Shown piece after piece: positions 9,252-62,010 of a stretch of 64,000 nucleotides of DNA. Numbering within the stretch: position 1 is the first letter of the stretch; every line of letters begins with the position of its first letter. Position numbers and translations under genes: made by a program. The notes beneath the pieces were generated by a model, which searched no databases, was not told the DNA's origin, and saw only the letters and a list, made by a program, of their open reading frames with translations. Source of the stretch: a virus (Duplodnaviria > Heunggongvirae > Uroviricota > Caudoviricetes); the IMG/VR virus record IMGVR_UViG_3300012347_000377, positions 160,001 to 224,000 of that record. The stretch is one strand, 5' to 3'.

Positions 9252-9262
9252 TATAAATTGTA

Positions 9263-9293
9263 AGAGTGAGGAAATAATCCTCACTTTTTTTTT
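9263..9293 (+). terminator. Terminator, copy 2 of the 23-bp direct repeat
   Basis: AGAGTGAGGAAATAATCCTCACT, identical to 8454-8476, followed by a T-run. Confidence 0.85.
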
Positions 9294-9334
9294 ACCTTAT
9301 ATTTATATAAGACTTAAAATATATAGGAGAAACA

Positions 9335-9541
9335 ATGTCCAAATCTAAAGAAGTTAATGAAGGTATTATAATGGCAGCTAAGAAGTTTAGTGATGCATTT
9401 TTTGATGGGTTAAAACAAAACGCAGTAGATAGAATGCTTAAAAAAGCAGAAGATGCTAACGTTGATCCCGAAGTATTAAAAACAATGCAAAGAATCAAAA
9501 AAGATTCCGAAGAACTTAAAAAACTACTTAGTATCCGATAA
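9335..9541 (+). CDS. Small hypothetical protein upstream of tape measure
   Basis: 68-aa ORF with GGAG and ATATTTATA upstream; abuts the tape measure gene. Confidence 0.7.
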   Translation: MSKSKEVNEGIIMAAKKFSDAFFDGLKQNAVDRMLKKAEDANVDPEVLKTMQRIKKDSEELKKLLSIR

Positions 9542-34100: not shown

Positions 34101-35459
34101 ATGCAAGAAGTAGATACTTTATCGAAATACGGACAATCATTCCAAAGTAAAGTTTTATCTGCTCTGATTACAGATGCTAAATTTTTAGATACAGTCGCTG
34201 AAATCACTACTCAAAAATTCTTTGAAAGTGAAGCAAATAAGTGGATTGTATCTGAAATTTTAGATTATCATTCAGAGTATAGAAAAGCACCCACATTGGA
34301 TGTATTCAAAGTTCAATTATCAAAGGTTGATAATGATATTTTGAAGAAAACGGTTGTTGATCAATTAAAACATATATGGACACAAGTTGGTAATGCAGAT
34401 TTAGAATACATCAAAAGTGAATTCGCCGATTTCTGTATTAACCAAAACTTAAAAGGAGTAATCTTACAATCAGTTGATTTATTAAAGGCAGGTTCTTATG
34501 ATAAAATCAAAGATTTGGTAGATAAGGCTTTGAAAGTTGGGGTTGAAAACAATTTGGGTCACGATTATATTTTAGATTTTGATGAACGTTCAACTGATGT
34601 AAAGAGAGATACTGTCCCAACTGACTGGGCTCCGGTTACCGAACTTATGGATGGTGGATTAGGACCGGGTGAGTTAGGAGTTGTTGTTGCACCATCGGGT
34701 GTTGGTAAGACTTGGATTTTAACTGCATTAGGTGCATCCGCTGTAAAACGTGGATTGAGTGTAGTTCATTATACAATGGAATTATCAGAACATTATGTAG
34801 GTGCAAGATACGATACTGTCTTTACTCATATTCCATCTGCGGATTTGAAAGAACGAACTGAAGAAGTTAAACATAAAATCGGTTCATTGAAAGGACAATT
34901 ACTTATTAAATATTATCCACCAAAAGGTGTAACGGTAAAAAAATTACAAGCACACATTGAGAAGATGATTTCATTGGGTAATAAACCAGATTTGATTATT
35001 GTGGATTATGCAGATTTACTTCTTTCACATTCATCCAAAAATGATTCAACTTATGCAGAACAAGGTGGTGTGTATATTGATTTAAGAGGTATGGGTGGTG
35101 AATTAGGTATTCCGGTCTGGACTGCATCACAAACCAATCGTTCGGCAATCGATAGTGAGGTTATTGAAGCAGATAAGATTGCTGATTCATATGCAAAGGT
35201 AATGAACGCAGATTTTATTATGAGTTGGAGTAGAAAATCCAAAGATAAACTGAATAACACTGCACGTTGTCACATTATGAAAAACAGATTCGGACAAGAT
35301 GGTATTACATTCCCTTGTAAGATGGATACTAATACGGGATTCATTGAAGTTTACGAAGGAAATACTCCAGATGGAATTCTAGCACAAAAAGAATCCGCAT
35401 CAGGTCAATTAGTTCAAAAACAACTACTACATAAAAAATATGTAGAGAATATGGGGTAA
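34101..35459 (+). CDS. dnaB: DnaB/gp41-like replicative helicase
   Basis: APSGVGKT, TMEL, IVDYADLL, WTASQTNR, KNRFG. Confidence 0.93.
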   Translation: MQEVDTLSKYGQSFQSKVLSALITDAKFLDTVAEITTQKFFESEANKWIVSEILDYHSEYRKAPTLDVFKVQLSKVDNDILKKTVVDQLKHIWTQVGNADLEYIKSEFADFCINQNLKGVILQSVDLLKAGSYDKIKDLVDKALKVGVENNLGHDYILDFDERSTDVKRDTVPTDWAPVTELMDGGLGPGELGVVVAPSGVGKTWILTALGASAVKRGLSVVHYTMELSEHYVGARYDTVFTHIPSADLKERTEEVKHKIGSLKGQLLIKYYPPKGVTVKKLQAHIEKMISLGNKPDLIIVDYADLLLSHSSKNDSTYAEQGGVYIDLRGMGGELGIPVWTASQTNRSAIDSEVIEADKIADSYAKVMNADFIMSWSRKSKDKLNNTARCHIMKNRFGQDGITFPCKMDTNTGFIEVYEGNTPDGILAQKESASGQLVQKQLLHKKYVENMG

Positions 35460-36511
35460 TGATAAACTATAACTCTTTTAACAAATTCGTAGAATATGAC
35501 CAATTAGATTTGGATTATTTTAAGGTCACTCAAAATGTTTTCAGTATAACGGATGTGGATTCTGCTTTAGAAATTATATTCCAATATCACCGAAAGCATG
35601 GGTTTCCTCATTATAATATTCCAAAACATAAAAGATTGGATGTATTAAGTGGATTACGAAAATTTGATGAACAAACTTTACTGAAAGATGGAAAAATAGA
35701 TCAAACAATGCATGGATTATCTCTTGCATGGACTTATTTTCCTCATTGGGTAGAGGTTGAGTGTGGTAATAACAAAATGAAACCAATTGAATATTGGGAG
35801 GATGATTCTAAGTTAAAGGAAATTATCCGTAAAACGTGGGATTGGCAAATTAAACATGGTAATGGTTCATTCACTCTAAATCGGTTAAGACAAAACTTTA
35901 AGATTTATGGTGGTAATCAATCAGTATCTAATTTTAGACCATCAGCAGCAAAATATATTTACAATACCTACGGAAATGGTGGAGTAGTTTGGGATATGAG
36001 TTGTGGATGGGGTGGAAGGTTGATAGGATTCCTCTCCAGTAATTGTAAAAGGTATATTGGAACAGAACCCTCAACTAAAACATTTAATGGATTAGAGAGG
36101 TTGAATGCGGAGTTAAACGATGGTAAAGAAGTTCAACTGCATCAGTTGGGTTCTGAAATCTTCAAACCCGATGAAAATTCATTAGATTTATGTTTTACAT
36201 CACCTCCATATTTTGATACTGAAAAATATTCAGATGAGGAAACCCAATCTTATAAAAAATATCCATCCGAATCCGAATGGACTAATGGGTTTTTAAAAGA
36301 TACGGTTTCTAATTGTTTTGTAGGATTAAAATCGGGTGGTAAGATGTTGTTAAATATCGCAAATACTCCTAAATACAAGACAATAGAATCTGAAACTATA
36401 AGAGTTTCTACTGAAGTTGGGTTCAAGCATATCGATACAATTTATCTGATACTTTCATCAGTTTCGGGTAAAGGTGAGAAATTAGAACCAATCTTTGTAT
36501 TTCAAAAATAA
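35459..36511 (+). CDS. Amino (N4C/N6A) DNA methyltransferase-like, paralogue 1
   Basis: NFRP, DMSCGWGGRL (SAM-binding), FTSPPYFDTEKY, EPIFVFQK. Confidence 0.8.
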   Translation: MINYNSFNKFVEYDQLDLDYFKVTQNVFSITDVDSALEIIFQYHRKHGFPHYNIPKHKRLDVLSGLRKFDEQTLLKDGKIDQTMHGLSLAWTYFPHWVEVECGNNKMKPIEYWEDDSKLKEIIRKTWDWQIKHGNGSFTLNRLRQNFKIYGGNQSVSNFRPSAAKYIYNTYGNGGVVWDMSCGWGGRLIGFLSSNCKRYIGTEPSTKTFNGLERLNAELNDGKEVQLHQLGSEIFKPDENSLDLCFTSPPYFDTEKYSDEETQSYKKYPSESEWTNGFLKDTVSNCFVGLKSGGKMLLNIANTPKYKTIESETIRVSTEVGFKHIDTIYLILSSVSGKGEKLEPIFVFQK

Positions 36512-40546: not shown

Positions 40547-41779
40547 ATGTATTTAGAATATTTTGATAAATTCTATGATATGGCTCCGTATCTTCATATT
40601 AATAAAGAAGAATGGAGTTATATTAAAAAAACATTTGATAGAGAAGATGTAAAAGAATCTCTAGCAAGAGTAGCAGCAACATATGAAATTCCATATGCAG
40701 ATATATCCGAAGAGGATGCAAGAACTGAATACCTAAAACTCAAAGGGTTCAGATGGAATGAATTATTCACCGAAGGAGATTGGGTGCCAAGAAAGGCATC
40801 GGAATCTCGTTATCCAATTACATTTCAAGGAAAGAACCAATACGTCAGACGTATCAACACAGGTAATGCCGCATCTAATTATTTTCAACAAGCAAATCGT
40901 TGGAGTGTAGATGGCACAGTGTCACCTGGTCCTTATAGAACTTGGAATAATCCTGATTTTATGTTTTCACTTATGGGTGGAATGTACACTTTGAAATTCG
41001 ATGAAGTGACAAAAAATACCCTAAGAACTTGTTTAAGTTTACGAAAGTATATTTGCTCACAATTCAAACCCAACGTTGCAAAAGTATTATACGATTTTGT
41101 AGAAGCAAAAAATGTATTAGATATTTCTGCAGGATGGGGAGATAGATTGTGTGGATTTTATGCATCGGAACATGGAGAACATTTTGTAGGTATTGACCCT
41201 CGAACTGAAAATCATCCAATTTATAGAGAACAAGCAAACTTTTATGAAAAACATAATGGTTTCTTCGAAACTAAAAAGAAATCAACTTTTTATGAATCAC
41301 CTGCTGAAGATTTAGATTTGGGTGAATATAAAGAATACTTTGATATTGTATTCAGTTCGCCACCATATTTCAATGTAGAGAGATATTCGTATGATGATAC
41401 TCAAAGTTGGGTTCGTTATAAAACAATTGATGATTGGAACAAAAACTTCTTACATAAAACTATTGCAAATGTTTGGCCCACTATTAAAAAGGGTGGATAT
41501 TTGGCAGTGAATATTGCCGATGTCTATGCCGCATCTAAGGGTGATGGTAAAGGACAACAAGAAATCACTAACCCTATGAACGATTTTATATCCACATTAG
41601 AGGGTGCAGAGTATCAAGGATGTTTGGGTATGGAAATGGCCAAAAGACCGGGTTCTGCAGGGGCAGGAATGATTATAGAAGGTGATGAGGAAAGATATTC
41701 CGAAGAAGAATTAAAAAAGAACGAAGAAGCAAAAGATAAAACGTTTTGTGAACCTGTATGGGTTTGGCGTAAAATGTAA
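40547..41779 (+). CDS. Amino DNA methyltransferase-like, paralogue 2
   Basis: QFKP, LDISAGWGDRL, GIDP, FSSPPYFNVERY, EPVWVWRK. Confidence 0.8.
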   Translation: MYLEYFDKFYDMAPYLHINKEEWSYIKKTFDREDVKESLARVAATYEIPYADISEEDARTEYLKLKGFRWNELFTEGDWVPRKASESRYPITFQGKNQYVRRINTGNAASNYFQQANRWSVDGTVSPGPYRTWNNPDFMFSLMGGMYTLKFDEVTKNTLRTCLSLRKYICSQFKPNVAKVLYDFVEAKNVLDISAGWGDRLCGFYASEHGEHFVGIDPRTENHPIYREQANFYEKHNGFFETKKKSTFYESPAEDLDLGEYKEYFDIVFSSPPYFNVERYSYDDTQSWVRYKTIDDWNKNFLHKTIANVWPTIKKGGYLAVNIADVYAASKGDGKGQQEITNPMNDFISTLEGAEYQGCLGMEMAKRPGSAGAGMIIEGDEERYSEEELKKNEEAKDKTFCEPVWVWRKM

Positions 41780-41783
41780 TTAA

Positions 41784-42956
41784 ATGCAGATAGAATTATC
41801 ACATTCAATCAAAAATGATAAATACACACAATATGTGTATGATACATTTGATATTCAAAACACAGATGAAACTAGAGTAATTATCCCAATGGATATATCA
41901 TCTCTAAATTCATTTGATTGGAATATTGGTGTCATTTATGGTAGTAGTGGTAGTGGTAAATCTACTATATTAAAAGAATTGGGTGGTATTAATAAAGTTC
42001 AATTTGATACTGAAAAATCCCTAATTTCAAACTTTGATTGGTTAGAACCAAACGAAGCAGGAAAAGTTTTAACATCAATGGGATTATCATCTATACCAAC
42101 GTGGTTACGTCCTTTTCACTTATTAAGTAATGGAGAACAATACCGAGCTGAATTAGCATATTTAGTTTCTTCTGCAAAAGATGGTGATACGATTTTAATA
42201 GATGAATATACATCAGTAGTAGATAGAGATGTTGCAAAAGCAATGTCATTTGCATTACAAAAATATATTCGTAGAGAAAATAAAAAGATTATTCTAGCAT
42301 CGTGTCATAACGATATAATGGAGTGGTTGATGCCTGATTGGACACTTTCACCCCAAAAAGGAGGCACACTCGAAAGAGGTGAATGGCTTCGGCAAGGGAG
42401 ACCAAACATCGAACTTCAAATTAGTAGGGTTGAACCTAAAGCTTGGGATTTCTTCAAAAAACATCATTATTTAACAGAAAATGTAAACAACACTTATATT
42501 TTTTTATTGTTTGAATGGAATGGAAACCCAGTTGCAATAAATGTAATTGGAAGACATATTGGTAGAAATAGTGTAGAAAAATCATTTAGAGAAAGTAGGA
42601 TTGTAGTTAATCCAGATTATCAAGGAATGGGTATTGGCAGTAAAGTGTCAGAGTTTTGTGCAGGAATAATAAAAAATACGAATGCTAAATATTATACTAA
42701 GACAGTAAATCCTGCATTAGGAGAATATAGAGAAAATAATCCTAATTGGAAACCAACACCTTTTAATGGTAAAATCAGAACTGATAAAAACTTACAAAAA
42801 AACGCATATACGATGTTAAAACTACGGGCATCATATTGTCATGAATATGTTGGTAATCCGATTGATGGGTATGATGAATTATTACAACCAATATCGGAAA
42901 TGAGAAACAATAAAAATATAAATTCAGAAACGTTAAATAAGTTTTTTCAATTTTAG
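41784..42956 (+). CDS. ABC-type ATPase fused to GNAT-like domain
   Basis: GSSGSGKS, LSNGEQ signature, IDEYTS, ASCH; C-terminal FKKHHYL...SRIVVNPDYQGMGIG acetyl-CoA motif. Confidence 0.85.
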   Translation: MQIELSHSIKNDKYTQYVYDTFDIQNTDETRVIIPMDISSLNSFDWNIGVIYGSSGSGKSTILKELGGINKVQFDTEKSLISNFDWLEPNEAGKVLTSMGLSSIPTWLRPFHLLSNGEQYRAELAYLVSSAKDGDTILIDEYTSVVDRDVAKAMSFALQKYIRRENKKIILASCHNDIMEWLMPDWTLSPQKGGTLERGEWLRQGRPNIELQISRVEPKAWDFFKKHHYLTENVNNTYIFLLFEWNGNPVAINVIGRHIGRNSVEKSFRESRIVVNPDYQGMGIGSKVSEFCAGIIKNTNAKYYTKTVNPALGEYRENNPNWKPTPFNGKIRTDKNLQKNAYTMLKLRASYCHEYVGNPIDGYDELLQPISEMRNNKNINSETLNKFFQF

Positions 42957-42988
42957 TTTGGAAATATCAAAAAAATATAGTATCTTTG
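42957..42988 (+). promoter_or_regulatory. Bacteroidetes-type -33/-7 promoter
   Basis: TTTG-N20-TATCTTTG. Confidence 0.8.
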
Positions 42989-43018
42989 TTATGATACTAA
43001 AACTATAAAATAAATAAT

Positions 43019-43717
43019 ATGACAGTAATAGAAGCAACATCACCCGGCGATGCATGGGTAAAAGTATCCAAACATCTTATCCAAAACGGAGTAAAAGTAG
43101 GTGATTTGACTGAAGAATTGAATGTGATGACTGAAATCACCGAATTTCAATCTGATGATTGGTTTGATCCACATTTTAGAGAAATTATGGGTGATGATAG
43201 AATTGATTACGCAAAGACTGTAACATTCTTAGAACCACAGCCACACGTTTCAGATAGTCCATTCTTTGCAGCCGAAGAAGGATTGGAATATAAATTCATT
43301 AAAGATAAATGGAGTGATTCTTATTGGGGTAGAATGGTTGCATGGCAAGGAACATTCAATCAGGTGGAAAATGTAATCAAAATCTTAAAGACTGGTAAAG
43401 CAGTTAAGAGATGTGAATTGATTATCTTTGACCCGAGTAGAGATGCTAGAAATCCATACTCACAACCTTGTATGTTAGCAATCGATATTAAACCTCGTAA
43501 TGGTAAAATCTATCTAACATCAATCATTCGTTCAAACAGAGTATCTAAATCAGGTTATGCAGATTACACTGCATTGGTTGAGATGGGTAAATTCTTAGCG
43601 AAAGAAAGTGATATGGAATTAGGAAAAGTATCTGTTTTGGCTTGTTCTTGTCATATCGGTAAAATGAATGATGAAACCAAAAAGACTCATAGGTTATTAG
43701 AAGTATTAAATAGATAA
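43019..43717 (+). CDS. Thymidylate synthase / dCMP hydroxymethylase-fold enzyme (atypical)
   Basis: SYWGRM, NQVENVI..L, FDP..D, QPC (catalytic Cys), RSN...D, SCHI. Confidence 0.8.
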   Translation: MTVIEATSPGDAWVKVSKHLIQNGVKVGDLTEELNVMTEITEFQSDDWFDPHFREIMGDDRIDYAKTVTFLEPQPHVSDSPFFAAEEGLEYKFIKDKWSDSYWGRMVAWQGTFNQVENVIKILKTGKAVKRCELIIFDPSRDARNPYSQPCMLAIDIKPRNGKIYLTSIIRSNRVSKSGYADYTALVEMGKFLAKESDMELGKVSVLACSCHIGKMNDETKKTHRLLEVLNR

Positions 43718-43718
43718 T

Positions 43719-45224
43719 ATGTGTGGAATTGTAGCAACAATAGGTTATAGTAAAGAAGATGTAAATGATATGCTTGAAGCAATCGAACATCGTGGTAGAG
43801 ATAATCGCGGTATTAGAGAATTTAAGTATGGTGATAAACAAATAGTTTTAGGTCACAATCGTTTATCAATTAATGACACATCACCATTAGGTAATCAACC
43901 AATGGAATTTGATGGTGTTCAATTAGTTGTAAATGGTGAGATATGGAATTACCCACAACTGCGTAAAGAATATGAAGAAAGAGGATATGAATTCAAATCA
44001 AATTCAGATTCGGAAATTATTTTATTCTTATATAAAGAAGGTGAATTAAAAAGATTAGATGGTATGTTTTCATTTATCATCTATGATAATAATAAATTAA
44101 TTTTATCCAGAGATTGGGTTGGTAAATTACCATTATACATTTACAATACAAATAAGTATATTGTAGCAAGTGAGTTGAAATCAATTACTACACAACATAA
44201 AACATCTGATATAAAATTCGTTCCAAAAAATTCATTAGTTGAAATTGATTTGGATACTGATAAAATTAAAATAAACGAAAATTATTATTTCCAATTTTCA
44301 TCAGAAACTACGCAAGTTTCATCACATGAAGAAGTTGCAGAAACTACTTTCAAATTATTAGAAAGAGCAGTAGATAAAAGATTATTATCTGATGTTCCAA
44401 TTGCAACATCATTAAGTGGTGGAATTGATTCTGCAGTAATTACTTATCTATTAAAACAACGAATTCCTAACTTAAAAGCATATACCATTGCATTTGATGA
44501 AACTTCAAAGGATTTACAAAAGGCAAGAGTTTGTGCAAAATATTTAGGAGTGGAGTTGGTTGAGGTATTCGTTCCTAAAAATGATGAAATCATTAAACAA
44601 CGTTTTTTAGATTCAATTAAAGTTATTGAATATCCATCAACCGTTCAAATGGAAGTTGGTATTTTACAATCATTCATAGCAGAACAAATGGCTAGTGATG
44701 GGATTAAAGTAGCATTTAGTGGTGAAGGTAGTGATGAATCATATGGTTCATATGGAACTTTCCGTATGTTCAGTAAGAAACCTGATTGGAGTGATGTTCG
44801 TAAAAAATTATTTGAAAAACAATACTATGGAAACTTACTAAGAGGTAATACTATCTTTATGAATTATGGAACAATTGAATTAAGATGTCCATTCTTTGAT
44901 ACTGATTTCTTAAATTACACAACTAATCTAACTGATGAATTTTTATGTAAAGGTGGTCAATGGAAAAGACCTCTTGCAGATGGATTTAGAGGTAAATTAC
45001 CAGATGAAATATTAGACCAAGAAAAAAGAGCATTCCAAAAAGGAACTAACTTTAAACAATACATAGAAGATATTATCTTAAATGATCCTAACATCAATTT
45101 CAAAAATAGAAAAAAGATGATTAATGTTATTGGTGATAATTTTGAAAAAATACATGGATTCTCTCATAGAAAGATGAAAGGAGAATTAACATCAAACGCA
45201 GGAGGGATATACCAATGGATATAA
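43719..45224 (+). CDS. Asparagine synthetase B-like glutamine amidotransferase
   Basis: MCGI, HRG.D, HNRLSI, NGEIWN, SDSE, RD..G..PLY, LSGGIDS, SGEGSDE..G.Y, ELRCPF. Confidence 0.9.
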   Translation: MCGIVATIGYSKEDVNDMLEAIEHRGRDNRGIREFKYGDKQIVLGHNRLSINDTSPLGNQPMEFDGVQLVVNGEIWNYPQLRKEYEERGYEFKSNSDSEIILFLYKEGELKRLDGMFSFIIYDNNKLILSRDWVGKLPLYIYNTNKYIVASELKSITTQHKTSDIKFVPKNSLVEIDLDTDKIKINENYYFQFSSETTQVSSHEEVAETTFKLLERAVDKRLLSDVPIATSLSGGIDSAVITYLLKQRIPNLKAYTIAFDETSKDLQKARVCAKYLGVELVEVFVPKNDEIIKQRFLDSIKVIEYPSTVQMEVGILQSFIAEQMASDGIKVAFSGEGSDESYGSYGTFRMFSKKPDWSDVRKKLFEKQYYGNLLRGNTIFMNYGTIELRCPFFDTDFLNYTTNLTDEFLCKGGQWKRPLADGFRGKLPDEILDQEKRAFQKGTNFKQYIEDIILNDPNINFKNRKKMINVIGDNFEKIHGFSHRKMKGELTSNAGGIYQWI

Positions 45225-46054
45225 GATTGAAAGGATTGAACGAAGATACTCCATTAGAACTTTACCATATTAAAGGTAGAGAGGTGTGGGTAAAAAGAGA
45301 TGACCTAATGGGTGATGGAACACAATTACCGCCATGGGGTAAACTAGCAGCATTATATGAGTTGGTTAAAAAATATGTGGATAAATCAAAACCTCTAACC
45401 CATCTTTCAGTAGATGGTAGTTGGACAGGTTGGGCACTTGCAGCAATATGTGAAAGTTTGGATATAGAATTTTATGTATCATATCCAGATTCAAAAAAGA
45501 TTTCGCAAGAATATTTGGGAATGATTAAAGAAATGTTTCCAAAAGTTCATATGAATCCAATCAGACCTAATATGATGCAGATTATGTATAATTCACTTCG
45601 AGGTCAAGCTAAAGAAAACGGATGGCAAATGCTACCTTATGCTTTTGACCACGATTTTTATAAAGATTATCTTGCGGAAAGAATTCAACCATTTACTCAT
45701 TTTGATAATTTAGTTGTATCATCTGGCAGTGGAGTGACACTTGCAGGATTAGCAAGAGGTTATTATAGAGAAGAACTTAAAGAGTTTTTTCCAAAGGTAA
45801 CTAGAAAAATTTGGACAACATGTGTATCATCGGAAAGTTCAATTAATAAAACATTAAAGAAAAGTGGAATTCCAATTCCTCTTAAAGTGAGAAAATCGGA
45901 ATATCTTTTTGAAGACCGAATTGATGGATATTCAGCTCCATTTCCATGTAATCAATTTTGGGATATAAAGCAATGGAAATGGTTAGAAGAAAATATAGAC
46001 CAAATTGAAGGAACTATACTTTTTTGGAATGTTGGTGGAATTTATAAATTCTAA
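45215..46054 (+). CDS. PLP-dependent fold-type II enzyme (D-cysteine desulfhydrase/ACC deaminase-like)
   Basis: TPL...VWVKRDDL...WGK (candidate PLP Lys), VVSSGSGVTLAGL phosphate loop, LFWNVG. Confidence 0.75.
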   Translation: MDIRLKGLNEDTPLELYHIKGREVWVKRDDLMGDGTQLPPWGKLAALYELVKKYVDKSKPLTHLSVDGSWTGWALAAICESLDIEFYVSYPDSKKISQEYLGMIKEMFPKVHMNPIRPNMMQIMYNSLRGQAKENGWQMLPYAFDHDFYKDYLAERIQPFTHFDNLVVSSGSGVTLAGLARGYYREELKEFFPKVTRKIWTTCVSSESSINKTLKKSGIPIPLKVRKSEYLFEDRIDGYSAPFPCNQFWDIKQWKWLEENIDQIEGTILFWNVGGIYKF

Positions 46055-46062
46055 TCAAAACA

Positions 46063-46094
46063 TTTGGAAATACGGAAATAATTTCGTATCTTTG
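46063..46094 (+). promoter_or_regulatory. Bacteroidetes-type -33/-7 promoter
   Basis: TTTG-N20-TATCTTTG. Confidence 0.8.
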
Positions 46095-46117: not shown

Positions 46118-48628
46118 TTGTATAAAAACGTCTACTTTCAACGAGAGAAAAATACTGTCCACTTATGGGATGACCATTTAGGATATAGAACTTTTCCATA
46201 TACTCGTTATGCATATGAACCTGCTGAGAATGGAACATTCCGTTCTATCTATGGTGATAAACTTTCTAAAATATACAAATTCAAAGGAGATGACCCTGGT
46301 TTATTCGAATCAGATGTACCCGAAACTACAAGAGTATTGGTAGATACATACACCGAATCAGATTTACCATCCGAAGGAATCGTAACGATGACATTCGATA
46401 TTGAGGTAGAAATGGAATCGGGTCTACCAAACGTAGAAGAAGCTAAGAATGAATTAACTGCAATCGGTCTAAATGATAATATCACTAATCAATATTGGGT
46501 ATTGATTATGGATAAGAAAGGTAAGATGGTAGAAAGAACTACCGATAAAGCAATTATCTTACCATTCAAAGATGAGAGAGATTTGTGTATGAAATTCCTA
46601 GAGTTGTATGAAGGAATACAACCGGATATTTTAACTGGTTGGAATATTGATAATTTCGATATTCCGTATCTATTTAATCGTATTAAACGTATCTTAGGTG
46701 AACAACACGCAAAGAGATTATCACCTATTGGTCAGGCATTCTATTCACCATACCGAAATCGTTGGTTCTTCGCAGGTGTAAGTTGTTTAGATTATTTAGA
46801 ATTATATAAGAAATTTAACTACAATGAATTACCTAACTATCGATTAGATACAATCGGAACGATTGAATTAGGTAAAGGTAAGATTGAGTATCAAGGTTCA
46901 TTGGATGATTTATTTAATGAAGATATTGAAAAGTTCATTGAGTATAACTTAGTCGATGTTGAAATTGTTGTAGAGTTAGATAAGAAATTACAATTCATTG
47001 ATTTATGTAGAGGTATTTGTCATGCAGGGCACGTTCCATATGAGGATTTCGTATATTCCTCAAAATATTTGGAGGGTGCATTGTTATGTTTCCTTAAACG
47101 TAAAGGATTGGTTGCACCAAATAAACCAGCAGATAGAAAAGAGAAATTACAGGCTCTTAAAGATGCAGGACAAGAAAAGTTTATTGGTGCATATGTGAAA
47201 GACCCGATTGTGGGTAAATATGATTGGGTATATGACTTGGACTTAACATCACTATATCCATCAATCATTATGACCTTAAACATTTCACCCGAAACAAAAG
47301 TGAATAAGGTTGAGAATTGGGATGTTCAAACTTTTATGAAAAAAGAAGTTGATTATTACCAAATGGGTGAAGATAGAATCTCCAGAGATAATTTGGATAA
47401 GTATATCAGAGAAGGTGATTTAACAATATCATCCAACGGCGTATTATATCGTAAAGACAAAATGGGATGTATTCCCGAGATATTAGATATTTGGTTTAAT
47501 GAAAGGGTTGAATTTAGAAAGCTTGAAAAGAAATACGGTCAAGAGGGTGATAAAGAAAAATATGCCTTTTACGGCAAAAGACAGTTGGTTCAAAAAATTC
47601 TACTTAACTCTCTTTATGGTGTTCTTGGTCTTCCTGCCTTTCGGTTTTACGATGTTGATAATGCGGAGGCAGTTACTACTACGGGTCAAACGGTTATTAA
47701 AAACACGGCCAATATGGGGAACATCAAATACAACAAAGAATTAGGAACGAAAGATGTGGATTCAAATATCTACATTGATACGGATTCTGTATTCTTCTCA
47801 GCAGTTCCATTACTAGACCATAGACATAAAGATTGGAAATCAATGCCTGATAGTGAAGTTGCGGTATTAGTGGATGGTATTGCGGGTGAAGTTCAAGATT
47901 ATCTAAATAAGTTTTATGATATTTTATGTGATAAGTTCTTTAATGTTCAGAATCACCGATTGGAAATTAAAAAAGAATACGTTGCACGAGCAGGTATTTG
48001 GATTGCAAAGAAGAGATACGCACAATGGATTATTTCCAACAATGGTATTGCAACTGATAAATTAGATGTTAAGGGATTAGACGTAAAACGTTCATCATTC
48101 CCTAAAGCATTTCAGGAGTGCATGGGAACTGTCTTAATTGATATTCTACGAAGTAAACCCGAAGAAGAAATCACAGCTTTTATTCTTGCTTTTAAGAAGA
48201 GTATGATGGAAAGACCAGTTTCGGAGATTGCAAAGAACTCTGCGGTAAAACACTTATCAAAGTATCTACCAAAGAAAAGACAATTGTTTCAATTAGAAAA
48301 GGGAGTTCCCGCACACGTTAAAGCAGCAATCCTATATAATGATTGTTTGAAACATTTCAACGCACCATTCAAATATTCACCGATGAAAGATGGTGATAAA
48401 GTAAAATGGGTATATCTTAAAAATAACCCATTGGGAATTGATGGATTGGCATTTACAGGTTATGAAGACCCGAAGGAGATTGTTGATTTTATTTCAACTT
48501 ATGTTGACCACAATCGAATCTTCGAGGCGGAATTAAAAGGTAAACTACAAGATTTTTATAATGCATTGAGTTGGGGTGAAGTTATGAGTGAACAGAAAAC
48601 TGCTGAGAAATTCTTTAGTTTCGGTTAG
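46118..48628 (+). CDS. Family B DNA polymerase (T4 gp43-like), TTG start
   Basis: FDIE, GWN...FD, YN..D exonuclease motifs; DLTSLYPS, K...NS.YG, YIDTDS, KKRY. Confidence 0.96.
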   Translation: MYKNVYFQREKNTVHLWDDHLGYRTFPYTRYAYEPAENGTFRSIYGDKLSKIYKFKGDDPGLFESDVPETTRVLVDTYTESDLPSEGIVTMTFDIEVEMESGLPNVEEAKNELTAIGLNDNITNQYWVLIMDKKGKMVERTTDKAIILPFKDERDLCMKFLELYEGIQPDILTGWNIDNFDIPYLFNRIKRILGEQHAKRLSPIGQAFYSPYRNRWFFAGVSCLDYLELYKKFNYNELPNYRLDTIGTIELGKGKIEYQGSLDDLFNEDIEKFIEYNLVDVEIVVELDKKLQFIDLCRGICHAGHVPYEDFVYSSKYLEGALLCFLKRKGLVAPNKPADRKEKLQALKDAGQEKFIGAYVKDPIVGKYDWVYDLDLTSLYPSIIMTLNISPETKVNKVENWDVQTFMKKEVDYYQMGEDRISRDNLDKYIREGDLTISSNGVLYRKDKMGCIPEILDIWFNERVEFRKLEKKYGQEGDKEKYAFYGKRQLVQKILLNSLYGVLGLPAFRFYDVDNAEAVTTTGQTVIKNTANMGNIKYNKELGTKDVDSNIYIDTDSVFFSAVPLLDHRHKDWKSMPDSEVAVLVDGIAGEVQDYLNKFYDILCDKFFNVQNHRLEIKKEYVARAGIWIAKKRYAQWIISNNGIATDKLDVKGLDVKRSSFPKAFQECMGTVLIDILRSKPEEEITAFILAFKKSMMERPVSEIAKNSAVKHLSKYLPKKRQLFQLEKGVPAHVKAAILYNDCLKHFNAPFKYSPMKDGDKVKWVYLKNNPLGIDGLAFTGYEDPKEIVDFISTYVDHNRIFEAELKGKLQDFYNALSWGEVMSEQKTAEKFFSFG

Positions 48629-48684: not shown

Positions 48685-50343
<1,659 letters not shown>

Positions 50344-51138: not shown

Positions 51139-52773
51139 ATGACTAAACACTTTTACGAACGAAGCAAGTTTTCCGAATTCAAATCTAATACAACTTATCA
51201 TCAGTTATTATCTATGACTGATGATGAGTTTACAGATTGGGCAAGATTATTACGCAAAGAAGTTACTGAACAATGGGATACTACTGGCACTCCACCTGTA
51301 ATTGGTAGAGATGAAGGTGGTATTATTGATTCATTTAAGAAACTGAAAGGTAATGATTGTAATTTTTGGGAAAAGGATTTAAGTGGTGATGATGAATCAT
51401 TAGGAATCATCCAAAACTTTAATAAAGATGCATCGGTTGTAAATCAGTTTTTTCCTACTATGTTGAAAACCAAAATATCAATTGGTAAATCAGCAGATGG
51501 TGGATTATCTATTTATGACCATTTTGCAGACCCTAATTTAGAAGAACAATTTGTTAAAATTATGAGAAGAGCAGTGAAGAGGGATTCAATGTATTCCTGG
51601 TCACGTTCTATTGTAAACAAAAAAGATGAAAATGAATTTTGGGATGGTGAAAATGGTGTAGAATTTATACAAAAAGTTTCAGAGGGTAAAGTATTTACCG
51701 GTAAGTGGTCTGATAATGATATTGTGATTGCTAAAGTTAAAGAAGATACTTTAGATAATTACGGAACGATTAACGATGAATATATTGGATTCGGTAATTT
51801 ATATCTAACTGCAGACCAATTAAGAGAATGTGTTGATAAAGGATACTTAACACCAACACAAATGTCAAACGTAAAATCTATTGATGATGATTACACAATG
51901 GCAGATGGTAAAGTTAAGAAGTTCTTTTATCTAATTCGTTGGTATGATAAGAGTGATGGTATTTTCCCAAAGATATTACAGGTATTCCGTTTAAGTTGTG
52001 GTCAACCCGCAGTAAACTTTCCTGCATTAACTGCTAAGTGGATTTACGAAACTTATACATCACACATCGAACAAGATGAACCTCTTCATATTTACGATTC
52101 ATCAAGTGGATGGGGTGGGAGAATATTAGGTGCAATGAGTTCTCGTAAGAAAACTCACTACATTGGGACAGACCCTAACCCTGATAATTTTATTCCAGAA
52201 TTGGGTATATCTCGTTATGAATATGTTGCTAAGTTTTACAATGATAAATGTGTGGATGATTTTTCAGATTCATTCGCTAAGTTTTTCGATGTGACAAAAC
52301 AAGGTAATACATATGAGTTGTTTCAAGATGGTTCAGAGTTAATCCAACACAATCCTAAATTCCAAAAGTATAAAGGTAAATTAGATTTATCTTTTACATC
52401 ACCTCCATATTTCAATAGAGAACAATATTCTCAAGATGAGAAACAATCATTCAAAGCATATGGTGAATATGAAGATTGGAGAGAAAACTTTTTACGTCCA
52501 ACATTAACAACTATTTTTGAATATACAAAGAATGATAGATATATCCTTTGGAATATTGCAGATATTAAAATTGGTGCAAATACCTACTATCCATTAGAAC
52601 AAGATTCAAGAGATATTTTGTTAGAATTAGGGTGTGAGTATAAGGGTAAGTTGAAGATGTTGATGACACGAATGGTGGGATTAGACCCAACCAAATCAGG
52701 TATTAAAAACGCAGTTAAACATAACGGAAAGGCATACAAATTCGAACCGATATTTGTATTCCATAAAAAATAA
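51139..52773 (+). CDS. Amino DNA methyltransferase-like, paralogue 3
   Basis: VNFP...AK, YDSSSGWGGRILG, GTDPN, FTSPPYFNREQY, EPIFVFHK. Confidence 0.8.
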   Translation: MTKHFYERSKFSEFKSNTTYHQLLSMTDDEFTDWARLLRKEVTEQWDTTGTPPVIGRDEGGIIDSFKKLKGNDCNFWEKDLSGDDESLGIIQNFNKDASVVNQFFPTMLKTKISIGKSADGGLSIYDHFADPNLEEQFVKIMRRAVKRDSMYSWSRSIVNKKDENEFWDGENGVEFIQKVSEGKVFTGKWSDNDIVIAKVKEDTLDNYGTINDEYIGFGNLYLTADQLRECVDKGYLTPTQMSNVKSIDDDYTMADGKVKKFFYLIRWYDKSDGIFPKILQVFRLSCGQPAVNFPALTAKWIYETYTSHIEQDEPLHIYDSSSGWGGRILGAMSSRKKTHYIGTDPNPDNFIPELGISRYEYVAKFYNDKCVDDFSDSFAKFFDVTKQGNTYELFQDGSELIQHNPKFQKYKGKLDLSFTSPPYFNREQYSQDEKQSFKAYGEYEDWRENFLRPTLTTIFEYTKNDRYILWNIADIKIGANTYYPLEQDSRDILLELGCEYKGKLKMLMTRMVGLDPTKSGIKNAVKHNGKAYKFEPIFVFHKK

Positions 52774-54493: not shown

Positions 54494-55567
54494 ATGAATT
54501 ATAGTCTCACTTATGATGACATTCAATTAATCCCACAATATTCAGAAATTTCTACTAGAACTGGAATTAACTTAAAAACCTTAGTATCTCGTAGATATGG
54601 TCTTTTAAACCCATTAGTTGCATCTCCTATGGATACTGTCTGTGGTGAGGAAATGGCTTATAAAATGTTCCTTATGGGTGGAGTAGGGTGTATTCATCGT
54701 TTTATGAGTATCGAAGAACAAGTAGAGGTAATCAAAAATCTTCGATATAAAATTTACGGAGAAGGTTTCGGAGGACCATTTGAGGATTGGGGAATTATGT
54801 ATGATGATTGGCATTCGGAAATTAAACAAATTCCAATTATGGCTGCAATCGGAGTAATGACTTCTGATATGGAACGTGCAAAAAGAATAACCGAAGCAGG
54901 TGCAAATATCTTAGTTATAGATGTTGCACATGGCCACCACAAAAATGTTATAGATATGATTAAGTGGTGTAAGCAAAATCTTAATGAAAATGTTGATATT
55001 ATCGCAGGTAATATTGCAACTGCTCAAGCAGCATTAGATTTGGAAAAGGCTGGTGCAGATGGATTACGTGTCGGTATTGGTGGGGGTTCACTTTGTACTA
55101 CAAGAGTAAAGACTGGATTTGGTGTTCCAAATGTAAGTTGTTTGGAAGAAATCATTAAAGTTGCAAAAACTCCGGTAATGGCAGATGGTGGAATCAGAAC
55201 ATCGGGTGATATTGCAAAAGCACTTTCATTGGGTTCTAGCTCAGTTATGTTAGGTTCTATATTAGCAGGAACTGAAGAAGCACCCGGTCAAATCATTGAA
55301 ACTACCAAAGGACTTTATAAAAGATATAGAGGTTCTGCATCATTAGAAACTAAAGTTTCAAACGGACAAGTGGCTAGAAACATCGAAGGTGAATCAACTA
55401 CTATTCCATATAAGGGAGGAGTTAAATTTATTTTAAATGGATTGATTGATGGAGTTAAATCTGCACTTTCATACGCAGGTGTAGATAATTTAACAAATTT
55501 CAGACCACCATATGTAATTGTCACTACATCGGGTATTAATGAAGCAAAACCACACTTATTACACTAA
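54494..55567 (+). CDS. IMP dehydrogenase / GMP reductase family (probably GMP reductase)
   Basis: SPMDTV, IDVAHG, GNIAT, GIGGGSLCTT, ADGGI, YRGSAS; no CBS domains. Confidence 0.85.
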   Translation: MNYSLTYDDIQLIPQYSEISTRTGINLKTLVSRRYGLLNPLVASPMDTVCGEEMAYKMFLMGGVGCIHRFMSIEEQVEVIKNLRYKIYGEGFGGPFEDWGIMYDDWHSEIKQIPIMAAIGVMTSDMERAKRITEAGANILVIDVAHGHHKNVIDMIKWCKQNLNENVDIIAGNIATAQAALDLEKAGADGLRVGIGGGSLCTTRVKTGFGVPNVSCLEEIIKVAKTPVMADGGIRTSGDIAKALSLGSSSVMLGSILAGTEEAPGQIIETTKGLYKRYRGSASLETKVSNGQVARNIEGESTTIPYKGGVKFILNGLIDGVKSALSYAGVDNLTNFRPPYVIVTTSGINEAKPHLLH

Positions 55568-55573
55568 AAAATA

Positions 55574-56113
55574 ATGACAAAAATAATAAACCTATTTGGT
55601 GGGCCGGGCATTGGAAAATCATCCATTGCATCCGGCCTTACTTATAAACTCAAAAAGAAACACATAAATTGTGATAATCCCTACGAATTTCCAAAAGTTC
55701 TTGCATGGGATGAAAATCATTCAGCAATCAAAGACCAATTATATGTTCTTGCAAATCAACATAGGGGAATTGTAAAGAGTTTTGGAAAGGTAGATTTTAT
55801 CATCTTAGATTCACCCATAATTCTTTCTTTGGTGTATAAATCATTGTATAAAGGAACAGAGTATCCAGCAACCTTATATGGGGAGTATTTTGATAAAATG
55901 GTGTTAGATATACATAATCAATATGACAACCTTAATATCCTTTTAAAACGAACCGAAGGGGGGTATAATGAAAAGGAACGCTATCAATCTCTTGATGAAT
56001 CTAAGACTTTGGATAATGAAATTGAAAACACATTAATAAAAAATAACATATCTTATATTACTATTGAAGTTGGTGATAATACGGTCAATGATATAGTGAA
56101 ATTATTAGTGTAA
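55574..56113 (+). CDS. P-loop nucleotide kinase-like (NadR/AAA_28 type)
   Basis: INLFGGPGIGKS, ILDSP, R......RYQ. Confidence 0.7.
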   Translation: MTKIINLFGGPGIGKSSIASGLTYKLKKKHINCDNPYEFPKVLAWDENHSAIKDQLYVLANQHRGIVKSFGKVDFIILDSPIILSLVYKSLYKGTEYPATLYGEYFDKMVLDIHNQYDNLNILLKRTEGGYNEKERYQSLDESKTLDNEIENTLIKNNISYITIEVGDNTVNDIVKLLV

Positions 56114-56116
56114 TAA

Positions 56117-56148
56117 TTTGGTAAATCCAAATAAAGTTCGTATATTAG
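56117..56148 (+). promoter_or_regulatory. Bacteroidetes-type -33/-7 promoter (TAnnTTAG variant)
   Basis: TTTG-N20-TATATTAG. Confidence 0.7.
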
Positions 56149-56167
56149 CTTAATAAAAGATATAGAT

Positions 56168-56377
56168 ATGATAGTATATGACCCACAAAATCCACTAACT
56201 GATGATGATTTAAAACAATTATCCGAAACTGATTTCTTTTCATACTTAGACCAAATGTCTGCGTATAAACGTAAAGATAAAAAAATAGTAGGAGAGTGGA
56301 AAAAGAAAGGACACGAAATTCTTAAAAAGAATGGTGTGAAAAATGTAAAAACAAATAGAACCCAATGGTTCGATTAA
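56168..56377 (+). CDS. Hypothetical protein
   Basis: 69 aa, directly after a promoter. Confidence 0.65.
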   Translation: MIVYDPQNPLTDDDLKQLSETDFFSYLDQMSAYKRKDKKIVGEWKKKGHEILKKNGVKNVKTNRTQWFD

Positions 56378-56394
56378 TTCAATAAAAAATAAAT

Positions 56395-56646
56395 ATGGCA
56401 CAAATTTTAGGACAAGGTGGTAATCAACTACCACAAGAACCAATTGATTTAACAAAAACAGAACCTATTTCATGTAAGAAGTGTGGAGGTGAAGTTTTTG
56501 TGCAAGGGTTTGCTTTTAGAAAAATTTCAAAGATATTAACCAAAAAACCAAAAGATGAAGTAATTCCTGTTGAATTATTTTTATGTGGAGATTGTGGTGA
56601 AGTATTGGAAGATTTATTAGTCCCTGGCTTTAAAATCGAAGAATAA
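56395..56646 (+). CDS. Zinc-ribbon protein
   Basis: CKKCG...CGDCG. Confidence 0.75.
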   Translation: MAQILGQGGNQLPQEPIDLTKTEPISCKKCGGEVFVQGFAFRKISKILTKKPKDEVIPVELFLCGDCGEVLEDLLVPGFKIEE

Positions 56647-60479: not shown

Positions 60480-60754
60480 TGAGCAAACCAATATTCATCA
60501 TTAGAATGCCAGGAACTTGGTCACCATCTCAAATTGATTCATCTCGTGAGGCTATTTACAAAAACAGAGAACTATGTGATGATTATCATGTGATGGTTCT
60601 TGCAGATAGGGAAGTTGAATCGACCGTATTTGAGATGTATAATGCACCAAACGAGCCTGATAAATTAGAAAATATTACAAAGTTAATTGAATTATCCATC
60701 CAAAGATGTTTAAGACAAGAAGAAGAACAAAGAAAAAAAGAAGAAAATGAGTAA
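60479..60754 (+). CDS. Hypothetical protein
   Basis: 91 aa, coupled between two glycosyltransferases. Confidence 0.65.
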   Translation: MSKPIFIIRMPGTWSPSQIDSSREAIYKNRELCDDYHVMVLADREVESTVFEMYNAPNEPDKLENITKLIELSIQRCLRQEEEQRKKEENE

Positions 60755-62009: not shown

Positions 62010-62010
62010 T

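What the first reader, a model, noticed from the sequence alone, without database searches (positions are those of the whole stretch)
42957..46094. Three-gene cassette (atypical TS-fold enzyme + AsnB-like amidotransferase + PLP fold-II enzyme) before polB: candidate new DNA base-modification pathway
Seen: three tightly coupled ORFs (1-nt gap, then a 10-nt overlap), bracketed by -33/-7 promoters at 42957 and 46063, directly upstream of the replicative polymerase. The TS-fold protein keeps the catalytic PC and RS, but reads RSNRVSKSGYAD, against E. coli ThyA RSCDVFLGLPFN and T4 dCMP hydroxymethylase RSNDVVFGFRND. Established: Asn at the ThyA-177 position selects dUMP and Asp selects dCMP; here it is Asp, and the normally invariant Asp169 is Arg. 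AsnB-family enzymes adenylate a carboxylate and amidate it with Gln-derived ammonia. PLP enzymes take part in phage thymidine hypermodification. Inference: the cassette makes a C5-substituted pyrimidine, probably cytosine, with an amino-acid-derived, amidated side chain. I do not recognise this combination as a characterised pathway.
Basis: partly seen in the sequence, partly recalled or inferred. Interest (0 to 1): 0.88.

Follow-up and report, generated by a model that had tools for sequence, protein, structure and literature searches.

The report
Uncharted phage cytosine hypermodification gene cassette
A 289-kb uncultured phage carries, just before its DNA polymerase gene, a conserved operon of three enzymes whose closest studied relatives each help decorate bases in phage DNA. 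This combination is not described in the papers I could search, so it probably makes an undescribed modified cytosine.

Summary
Three + strand genes (43019-43717, 43719-45224, 45215-46054) are separated by 1 nt and then overlap by 10 nt. They lie between two Bacteroidota-type -33/-7 promoter motifs, directly upstream of PolB.

- **Gene 1** is a 232-aa thymidylate-synthase (TS) fold protein. It keeps the catalytic Cys and the phosphate-binding Arg residues and has the cytosine-type Asp. The folate-contacting Asp169 position is Arg, or Ala in relatives. Its nearest solved relatives are the flavin-dependent dCMP 5-hydroxylase AfhB and the CMP hydroxymethylase MilA. The genome also has a fully canonical ThyA.
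- **Gene 2** is an intact Gln-dependent AsnB-type amidotransferase. It is homologous to CmoY, the phage ligase that amidates 5-carboxymethylcytosine in DNA.
- **Gene 3** is a fold-type-II PLP enzyme. It aligns end to end with M6 gp52, which decarboxylates amino acids tethered to DNA.

All 41 related contigs long enough to test carry the PLP gene next to the TS-like gene. The module also recurs in unrelated phage backbones, usually with an SPPY amino-methyltransferase-like gene. Every known starter enzyme I searched for is absent: 5-HMUDK, AADT, CmoA and C5-MTase.

The cassette is most likely a new cytosine hypermodification route. The product is unknown. Earlier follow-ups in this scan reached similar readings on other genomes.

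The parts
42957..42988 (+). Bacteroidota-type promoter motif (TTTG, 20 nt, TATCTTTG) in front of the trio
   Evidence: Sequence read. The motif family is enriched 19 versus 3.4 expected.
43019..43717 (+). TS-fold enzyme P0001 (232 aa). It is a cytosine-type protein with no Asp at the folate-contact position, and is probably a dCMP C5-modifying enzyme.
   Evidence: Pfam PF00303 scores 21.7 bits, below the 24.3 cut-off. AF2 pLDDT is 95.8. VIA-align gives AfhB 9iqu Z 20.8, MilA Z 20.6 and ThyA about 18.5. The family profile's best PDB match is AfhB, E 5e-17, over the full length. Kept residues are Cys151, Arg171/Ser172, Lys130/Arg131 and Tyr102. Arg174 sits at the D169 position, Asp182 at N177 and Ser148 at L143.
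43719..45224 (+). AsnB-type glutamine amidotransferase / PP-loop synthetase P0002 (501 aa), probably a carboxylate-to-carboxamide enzyme
   Evidence: for family assignment. It is 32.6% identical (E 4e-55) to Streptomyces phage TurkishDelight gp124, which lies among two methyltransferase genes and two ParB-like genes. The synthetase domain is homologous to SpCmoY (22% identity over 251 aa, E 1e-7). It is 53-60% identical to the AsnB genes beside distant TS-like genes.
45215..46054 (+). Fold-type-II PLP enzyme P0003 (279 aa), M6 gp52-like
   Evidence: It aligns end to end with M6 gp52 (25% identity, E 6e-24) and shares the C-terminal PFPCNxFWDxKxWxWL motif. PHROG 7093 scores 2e-24. Structural Z is 23.6 to D-Cys desulfhydrase / ACC-deaminase homologue. 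Lys43 is invariant.
46063..46094 (+). Second promoter motif, in front of PolB. It closes the transcription unit.
40547..41779 (+). SPPY N6/N4 amino-methyltransferase-like protein P0006 (410 aa), a probable fourth member of the system with its own promoter at 40490
   Evidence: A homologue lies next to the TS-like gene in unrelated backbones: L079 27% identity E 5e-24, L082 34% E 8e-28, L094 31% E 3e-65, and L083 by Pfam. A homologue is also near the trio in most related contigs. ESM Atlas neighbours are viral N6_N4_Mtase clusters.
46118..48628 (+). Family-B replicative DNA polymerase (context only)
   Evidence: PHROG 262 scores 8e-191 and Pfam DNA_pol_B is hit.

Best explanation
The cassette is a phage pathway that replaces or decorates cytosine in the viral DNA with a C5-substituted base carrying a carboxamide.

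**Step 1 (inferred from residues and structure).** The TS-fold enzyme binds dCMP. Its Cys151 adds to C6, and C5 receives a new substituent. The chemistry does not use methylene-tetrahydrofolate in the canonical way, because the folate-contacting Asp is Arg or Ala.

**Step 2 (inferred by analogy with T4 and RB69).** The modified dCMP is phosphorylated and incorporated by the adjacent PolB.

**Step 3 (inferred from homology to enzymes shown to act on DNA).** The gp52-like PLP enzyme makes or processes an alpha-amino-acid moiety on the side chain. The AsnB-type enzyme adenylates the side-chain carboxylate and converts it to a primary amide with glutamine-derived ammonia.

**Favoured concrete product (low confidence).** I favour 5-(2-amino-2-carbamoylethyl)cytosine. 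This is the amide of the cytosine analogue of the C-alpha-glycinyl-thymine intermediate of phage M6.

The SPPY methyltransferase-like partner probably acts on the same DNA. The likely purpose is protection from host nucleases.
For: **Gene 1**
- It has a confident TS fold (pLDDT 95.8). The nearest solved structures are the two cytosine-nucleotide C5 enzymes AfhB and MilA.
- Catalytic Cys, phosphate-binding Arg/Ser and Asp at the N177 position are kept across the family. The D169 position is R in 47 of 49 related loci and A in 2, and is never D or N in the close clade. More distant short TS-likes keep D.
- The genome has a separate ThyA with every canonical residue. Gene 1 is therefore not the dTMP synthase.

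**Gene 2**
- Glutaminase and PP-loop motifs are intact.
- Its closest cultured-phage relative is TurkishDelight gp124, flanked by two methyltransferase genes and two ParB-like genes. This is the gene order published for CmoA/CmoX/ParB clusters, but I did not type those two methyltransferases.
- In orthologous positions of related phages it is replaced by PP-loop-only CmoY homologues. One of these is 31% identical to SpCmoY, E 4e-33. CmoY is shown to ligate an amine to a DNA-borne carboxylate (PMC12783734).

**Gene 3**
- It is a full-length homologue of M6 gp52. gp52 is shown to decarboxylate a beta-(pyrimidin-5-yl)alanine moiety in DNA (PMC8989533).

**Linkage**
- The PLP gene is present in 41 of 41 TS-like loci with enough downstream sequence.
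- The module recurs with shuffled order in unrelated backbones (L082, L094, L096, L079, L083, L097).
- One protein fuses the TS-like domain to a radical SAM enzyme.

**Context**
- The genes share promoter type and strand with RNR, MazG, PolB, clamp and clamp loader.
Against: - No chemical data exist, so the product is a guess.
- The D169 position is R or A, not the N that is diagnostic of 5-hydroxy-dCMP synthases. The cofactor is therefore unknown.
- A PLP decarboxylase and a carboxylate amidotransferase cannot both act on a single alpha-carboxylate. The PLP enzyme must then do something other than its characterised homologues do, or the side chain must carry two carboxylates.
- A complete 202-kb relative (G001) has AsnB', a D-2-hydroxyacid dehydrogenase, the PLP enzyme (53% identity) and the methyltransferase-like gene, but no TS-fold gene at all. 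The PLP/AsnB pair therefore does not strictly need the TS-like enzyme.
- P0002 passes the NCBIfam cut-off for true asparagine synthase.
- Identity to the characterised homologues is low (17-25%).
Confidence: 0.55

Rival explanations
1. The route goes through 5-hydroxycytosine. P0001 would be a flavin-dependent dCMP 5-hydroxylase like AfhB / RB69 gp48. After incorporation, the SPPY methyltransferase-like enzyme would alkylate the 5-OH with a carboxyl-bearing group from a SAM derivative: carboxymethyl from carboxy-SAM, or 3-amino-3-carboxypropyl from SAM. AsnB would amidate that carboxylate and the PLP enzyme would trim an amino-acid end.
For: AfhB is the best sequence-profile match and a tied best structural match. 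Loss of Asp169 is the published hallmark of the hydroxylase branch (PMC13326640). An SPPY methyltransferase-like gene always travels with the module. CmoY-type ligases elsewhere sit beside carboxy-SAM synthase homologues, as in PaBG gp308 and Y3 gp017. An FMN-type PNPOx gene lies in the L082 cluster.
Against: The diagnostic D169N is not met, because the position is R or A. No CmoA is present in the genome. The window's GT4 glycosyltransferase is conserved in the TS-lacking relative too, so it does not track a hydroxyl handle. No O-alkylating amino-methyltransferase is known.
Confidence: 0.17
2. There are two separate functions. The AsnB/PLP pair, with the SPPY methyltransferase-like enzyme, would build a modification on another position or base. 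The TS-like enzyme would independently make a simple C5-modified dCMP. Their adjacency would reflect a shared 'DNA modification' neighbourhood and not one pathway.
For: Variant C loci, and the complete genome G001, keep AsnB', the PLP enzyme and the methyltransferase-like gene without any TS-fold gene. PLP subtypes are shuffled independently of ligase type.
Against: TS-like, ligase and PLP (or rSAM) genes are contiguous and translationally coupled in several unrelated backbones. A TS-like/radical-SAM fusion exists. The AsnB' of variant C is only 31-34% identical to P0002, so variant C may be a different system.
Confidence: 0.13
3. The genes are ordinary auxiliary metabolism: a second thymidylate synthase, an asparagine synthetase and a serine/threonine/cysteine-degrading PLP enzyme that boost host metabolism during infection.
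For: P0002 exceeds the NCBIfam asparagine-synthase cut-off. PHROG labels P0003 'threonine dehydratase'. Jumbo phages carry many metabolic genes.
Against: P0001 lacks the Asn177, Asp169 and Leu143 equivalents and falls below the Pfam cut-off, while a canonical ThyA exists elsewhere. In the phage collection P0003 matches only phages of the M6 / YuA / Bordetella hypermodification group. AsnB is interchangeable with CmoY-like DNA ligases at the same position. Linkage is strict across divergent phages.
Confidence: 0.08
4. The substrate is a ribonucleotide or a small molecule and not DNA. One option is a CMP-derived peptidyl-nucleoside-like metabolite, as in the MilA pathway. Another is a tRNA modification.
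For: MilA, a CMP enzyme, ties as nearest structure. The Tyr209 equivalent that contacts the deoxyribose 3'-OH is Gly214. Some clusters also contain an ATP-grasp ligase and radical SAM enzymes.
Against: The cassette is embedded among replication and dNTP-supply genes. It is always linked with DNA amino-methyltransferase-like genes. The characterised homologues of both tailoring enzymes act on DNA.
Confidence: 0.05

Closest known systems
Flavin-dependent 5-hydroxy-dCMP synthases (HY126 AfhB, PDB 9iqu/9iqc; RB69 gp48; DLP3 gp80), described in PMC13326640 and in its reference 49, which I could not read
   Same: A short TS fold of about 230 aa that aligns over its full length. It has a catalytic Cys, Asp at the ThyA-N177 position (dCMP) and no Asp at position 169. 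It acts before replication. It is the best profile hit (E 5e-17) and has Z 20.8.
   Different: The diagnostic residue is Asn in those enzymes. Here it is Arg, or Ala in relatives. Identity is about 18%. The neighbours here are an amidotransferase and a PLP enzyme, not arabinose or glycosyl-transfer genes.
CmoA/CmoX/CmoY system of Synechococcus phage S-B43 (5-carboxymethylcytosine, then an amide), described in PMC12783734
   Same: An asparagine-synthetase-family PP-loop enzyme converts a base-borne carboxylate in DNA to an amide. That paper predicts a GATase-bearing subgroup that would use Gln-derived ammonia. P0002 is 33% identical to such a protein in Streptomyces phage TurkishDelight. The PP-loop-only proteins of sister cassettes are up to 31% identical to SpCmoY.
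   Different: The genome has no carboxy-SAM synthase and no C5-methyltransferase-type CmoX. The carboxylate must arise another way. P0002 itself is only 22% identical to SpCmoY.
Thymidine hypermodification pathway of Pseudomonas phage M6 / Salmonella phage ViI (dUMP hydroxymethylase, 5-HMUDK, amino-acid:DNA transferase, radical SAM isomerase, PLP decarboxylase gp52/gp226), described in PMC8989533
   Same: P0003 is an end-to-end homologue of gp52, with the PLP lysine and the C-terminal motif. A TS homologue supplies the starting base. In sister cassettes a radical SAM enzyme stands where the PLP enzyme stands here.
   Different: The genome has no 5-hmdU DNA kinase and no AADT. The TS homologue is cytosine-type. 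The window's radical SAM gene is unrelated to gp53. An amidotransferase is present, which that paper only noted as an uncharacterised neighbour in metagenomic contigs.
T4 dCMP hydroxymethylase gp42 and CMP hydroxymethylase MilA
   Same: TS-fold enzymes that modify cytosine nucleotides at C5, with Asp at the N177 position and an RSN motif. MilA has Z 20.6.
   Different: Both keep Asp169 and use methylene-THF. They have Asp or Glu at the L143 position, where P0001 has Ser.

Membership tests
Thymidylate synthase ThyA (folate-dependent dUMP methylase) | Catalytic Cys146 and phosphate-binding Arg166/Ser167 and Arg126'/127' | tested here: met
   Cys151, Arg171/Ser172 and Lys130/Arg131 are present.
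Thymidylate synthase ThyA (folate-dependent dUMP methylase) | Asn177 (dUMP selection), Asp169 (pterin contact), hydrophobic Leu143, and a Pfam score above the gathering cut-off | tested here: not met
   The equivalents are Asp182, Arg174 and Ser148. PF00303 scores 21.7 bits, below 24.3. A canonical ThyA lies elsewhere in the genome.
5-hydroxy-dCMP synthase (AfhB / RB69 gp48) | N177D together with the diagnostic D169N (PMC13326640) | tested here: not met
   N177D is met. The D169 position is Arg in 47 of 49 loci and Ala in 2, and is Arg or Ala in the wider clade.
5-hydroxy-dCMP synthase (AfhB / RB69 gp48) | Short TS fold closest to AfhB | tested here: met
   Z 20.8, rmsd 2.7 over 197 residues. 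This is tied with MilA at Z 20.6. Profile E is 5e-17 over the full length.
5-hydroxy-dCMP synthase (AfhB / RB69 gp48) | Flavin cofactor and O2-dependent hydroxylation | not testable with these tools
   This needs a UV-visible spectrum of purified protein and 18O2 labelling.
dCMP/CMP hydroxymethylase (T4 gp42, MilA) | Asp169 retained for methylene-THF, and an acidic residue at the L143 position | tested here: not met
   The equivalents are Arg174 and Ser148.
Asparagine synthetase B / CmoY amide-ligase family | N-terminal nucleophile Cys, glutaminase residues and the SGGxDS PP-loop | tested here: met
   The protein has MCGI, the N-G-E and D motifs, and SGGIDS. TIGR01536 scores 287 against a cut-off of 267.
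Asparagine synthetase B / CmoY amide-ligase family | Homology to the characterised DNA ligase SpCmoY | tested here: met
   P0002 is 22% identical over 251 aa, E 1e-7. The proteins replacing it in sister cassettes score E 3e-12 to 4e-33.
CmoA/CmoX/CmoY system | Co-occurrence with carboxy-SAM synthase CmoA and an SPPC C5-methyltransferase CmoX | tested here: not met
   There is no TIGR00740 and no PF00145 match in the 288,673-bp genome.
M6 gp52-type DNA amino-acid decarboxylase | Fold-type-II PLP enzyme with the Schiff-base Lys, homologous over its full length to gp52 | tested here: met
   E 6e-24 end to end. Lys43 is invariant. Z is 23.6 to D-Cys desulfhydrase.
M6 gp52-type DNA amino-acid decarboxylase | Decarboxylase activity on a DNA-tethered amino acid | not testable with these tools
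   This needs an enzyme assay.
M6/ViI thymidine hypermodification pathway | 5-hmdU DNA kinase (PF18748) and amino-acid:DNA transferase (PF18724) | tested here: not met
   Neither family is found in the genome.

The most novel reading that the evidence does not exclude
The TS-fold enzyme has left both folate and flavin chemistry. It would use its Cys-activated C5 carbanion to form a C-C bond with an amino-acid-derived electrophile supplied by the fold-II PLP enzyme, or by a radical SAM partner in the fusion proteins. That would give a cytosine carrying an alanyl side chain, which the amidotransferase converts to an amino-amide. This would be a new reaction class for the TS superfamily and a new natural DNA base.
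Probability: 0.15. Interest if true: 0.9.

Novelty: new variant of a known kind. Interest (0 to 1): 0.72.

Why it matters
Phage DNA hypermodifications defeat restriction and some CRISPR defences. They also supply enzymes for DNA labelling and sequencing chemistry.

Three starter strategies are known for pyrimidines: the 5-hydroxymethyl, 5-hydroxy and 5-carboxymethyl handles. This cassette combines tailoring enzymes from two of those systems with a TS-fold enzyme that fits none of the characterised subclasses. It lacks all known starter enzymes.

It is common in uncultured jumbo phages (dozens of IMG/VR contigs) and comes in several modular variants. It therefore offers a tractable set of three or four genes for discovering a new base. 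It may also reveal a new cofactor use by the thymidylate synthase fold.

Tried and rejected
- **DNA-level search.** A search of the phage collection with the cassette found nothing.
- **Known starter enzymes in the 289-kb genome.** AADT, 5-HMUDK, CmoA and C5-methyltransferase are all absent.
- **Radical SAM genes.** The window's radical SAM/SPASM gene (56646-57905) is unrelated to M6 gp53 and to the radical SAM enzymes linked to TS-like genes elsewhere.
- **Hidden TS-like gene in variant C.** The 217-aa ORF upstream of AsnB' in L064 shows no similarity to P0001. The profile search found no TS-fold gene in the complete variant-C genome.
- **Complex prediction.** The P0001 with P0003 job returned no verdict, with a score of 0.00. 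It is not evidence either way.
- **Glycosyltransferase co-variation.** I asked whether the window's GT4 gene tracks the TS-like gene. It is present in 5 of 5 related genomes, including the one without a TS-like gene, so it is uninformative.
- **Unavailable resources.** He et al. 2026, the AfhB structure paper, is not held, so the flavin-contact residues could not be compared.
- **Literature.** Searches for the gene combination returned no paper that describes it.


Full report
**Anatomy**

The window is bases 160001-224000 of a 288,673-bp IMG/VR virus record with direct terminal repeats. All large ORFs are on the + strand. GC content is about 32%.

The finding lies in a T4-like replication and nucleotide-metabolism block. 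That block encodes SSB, UvsX, a DnaB-like helicase, RNR, MazG, glutaredoxin, PolB, clamp and clamp loader.

ORFs 43019-43717, 43719-45224 and 45215-46054 have a 1-nt gap and then a 10-nt overlap. They are bracketed by TTTG-N20-TATCTTTG motifs at 42957 and 46063. This motif class occurs 19 times in the window against 3.4 expected, mostly in + strand intergenic gaps.

**Gene 1 (P0001)**

- Pfam PF00303 scores 21.7 bits, below the gathering cut-off.
- The AF2 model is very confident, with pLDDT 95.8.
- Foldseek and VIA-align put the phage HY126 dCMP hydroxylase AfhB (Z 20.8) and the CMP hydroxymethylase MilA (Z 20.6) ahead of ordinary ThyA at about 18.5.
- A profile of the family hits AfhB best, and over its full length (E 5e-17).
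- Kept residues are Cys151, Arg171/Ser172, Lys130/Arg131 and Tyr102.
- The ThyA-N177 position is Asp182, the cytosine selector.
- The ThyA-D169 position is Arg174, the L143 position is Ser148 and the Y209 position is Gly214.
- In 49 related loci the D169 position is Arg 47 times and Ala twice. In the wider close clade it is Arg or Ala, never Asp or Asn. More distant short TS-likes keep Asp.

PMC13326640 shows that D169N plus N177D homologues are flavin-dependent 5-hydroxy-dCMP synthases. Loss of this Asp is thus a known sign of leaving folate chemistry, but the diagnostic Asn is not met here.

The genome also encodes a ThyA with every canonical residue. Thymine supply is therefore ordinary, and gene 1 has another task.

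**Gene 2 (P0002)**

- It is an intact AsnB-type enzyme, with Cys2, glutaminase motifs, an SGGIDS PP-loop and a GEGSDE motif.
- Its nearest cultured-phage relative is Streptomyces phage TurkishDelight gp124 (33% identity, E 4e-55). That gene lies between two methyltransferase genes and next to two ParB-like genes. This matches the gene order published for CmoA/CmoX/ParB clusters, but I did not type those two methyltransferases.
- PMC12783734 shows that CmoY of Synechococcus phage S-B43, an asparagine-synthetase homologue, ligates glycine to 5-carboxymethylcytosine in DNA. The paper predicts that a GATase-bearing subgroup uses glutamine-derived ammonia.
- The synthetase domain of P0002 is homologous to SpCmoY (E 1e-7).

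**Gene 3 (P0003)**

- It aligns end to end with M6 gp52 (E 6e-24). The alignment includes the PLP lysine and a distinctive C-terminal motif.
- In the phage collection it matches only the M6 / YuA / Bordetella group.
- It has a fold-type-II structure, Z 23.6 to D-cysteine desulfhydrase and an ACC-deaminase homologue.
- gp52 decarboxylates C-alpha-glycinyl-thymine in DNA (PMC8989533).

**Comparative genomics**

Forty-nine IMG/VR loci encode a P0001 relative. Of these, 41 have at least 2.5 kb downstream, and all 41 have the PLP gene. In 35 of them AsnB lies between the two genes. By the table the other six carry a gene of about 0.9 kb in its place. One of these (L042) was read as a 308-aa PP-loop-only protein, and one search matched that protein in four of the six at its identity threshold.

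PolB identity across this set falls to 54%.

The module also occurs in other phage backbones, in these gene orders:

| Locus | Gene order |
|---|---|
| L082 | methyltransferase-like, TS-like, PP-loop, PLP, PNPOx |
| L094 | methyltransferase-like, TS-like, PLP, CmoY-like |
| L096 | TS-like, AsnB |
| L083 | methyltransferase-like, TS-like, AsnB, radical SAM |
| L097 | TS-like, radical SAM |
| L079 | methyltransferase-like, PP-loop, ATP-grasp, TS-like fused to radical SAM |

A third variant (the L064 and L073 groups, and the complete genome G001) has a different AsnB (31-34% identity), a D-2-hydroxyacid dehydrogenase and the PLP enzyme (53-77% identity), but no TS-fold gene.

The P-loop/GNAT gene at 41784-42956 is found only in the closest relatives and is not core.

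**What is absent**

The genome has no 5-hmdU DNA kinase, no amino-acid:DNA transferase, no carboxy-SAM synthase and no C5-methyltransferase. It therefore cannot be filed under the M6/ViI pathway or under the CmoA/X/Y pathway.

**Interpretation**

The most economical reading is a cytosine C5 hypermodification route. A non-folate TS-fold enzyme acts on dCMP. The resulting side chain has an amino-acid character, as the gp52-like PLP enzyme implies, and carries a carboxylate that is amidated.

Which step comes first is not determined. Nor is it determined whether the tailoring happens on the nucleotide or on DNA, what the C5 substituent is, or how the 2-hydroxyacid dehydrogenase can stand in for the TS-like gene.

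I favour an alanyl-amide side chain, because that assigns a role to both tailoring enzymes in every PLP-containing variant. My confidence in this specific product is only about 0.2. A 5-hydroxycytosine route with O-alkylation by the SPPY enzyme is the main alternative.

Ordinary metabolism is unlikely, for three reasons: the canonical ThyA elsewhere in the genome, the phage-restricted relatives of the PLP enzyme, and the interchange of AsnB with CmoY-like ligases.

**Relation to earlier notes of this scan**

After forming this reading I found that follow-up agents had examined look-alike cassettes on other genomes (e1-5339648, e1-5362744, e1-5362762). They reached similar conclusions. Those are unchecked AI notes and not independent evidence. 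The points that overlap were tested here.

Noticed in passing
window 35459-36511, 40547-41779, 51139-52773: There are three paralogous SPPY N6/N4 amino-methyltransferase-like genes (PHROG 12517, with weak PF01555 hits) spread through the replication module. Only the middle one sits next to the cassette.
   Followed up: partly
window 41784-42956: A 390-aa protein combines an ABC/P-loop ATPase N-terminal part with a GNAT acetyltransferase C-terminal part (PHROG 11143, E 1e-126). It lies between the methyltransferase-like gene and the trio. It is present only in the closest relatives (L004, L005), so it looks like a recent insertion.
   Followed up: partly
L064:5583-8825 and L073:5619-8834 (also the complete genome G001): In a sister cassette the TS-like gene is missing. 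A different AsnB (31-34% identity), a D-2-hydroxyacid dehydrogenase and the same PLP enzyme family are translationally coupled. Its chemistry is unexplained.
   Followed up: partly
L079:7088-9118 (protein P0011), with neighbours L079:3274-7095: A 676-aa natural fusion joins the TS-like domain to a radical SAM enzyme. It sits beside a methyltransferase-like gene, a CmoY-like PP-loop ligase and an ATP-grasp-like ligase.
   Followed up: partly
L087 (Pseudomonas phage PaBG gp306-gp310) and L088 (Erwinia phage Y3 gp017-gp018): Genes annotated 'tRNA methyltransferase' are CmoA homologues (TIGR00740, E 8e-38 and 2e-41, both below the family cut-off). They lie next to CmoY-like 'asparagine synthase' genes. 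In PaBG a DNA cytosine methylase and a ParB-like gene are also adjacent. These cultured jumbo phages may therefore make 5-carboxymethylcytosine derivatives.
   Followed up: partly
window 54494-57905: A GMP-reductase/IMPDH-like gene (PF00478, E 1e-97), an AAA_28 / thymidylate-kinase-like gene (a possible dNMP kinase) and a radical SAM gene with an N-terminal SPASM-like region lie in a row downstream of the clamp loader.
   Followed up: no
window 59088-63914: Two GT4 glycosyltransferases are present, one just reaching the 'GT4-conflict' Pfam cut-off, together with a GT2. The first GT4 is conserved at 55-81% identity in five related genomes, including the one that lacks the TS-like gene.
   Followed up: partly
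window 48709-50343: A phage-encoded GroEL chaperonin (PHROG 5725, E 3e-171) lies directly after PolB.
   Followed up: no
L009, L010, L047, L048 (between the TS-like gene and AsnB); L083:6766-7944 and 8825-9361: Insertions of 0.25-1.15 kb split the TS-like/AsnB junction in some relatives. In L083 a TnpB/IS605 element and an HNH-like gene flank the TS-like gene. Mobile elements seem to target this locus.
   Followed up: no
G000:C1:62463-63575 (outside the window): The canonical ThyA lies in a 386-codon open frame (from an ATG it would be about 377 aa, against about 264 in E. coli). It carries long insertions but has all catalytic and folate-binding residues.
   Followed up: partly
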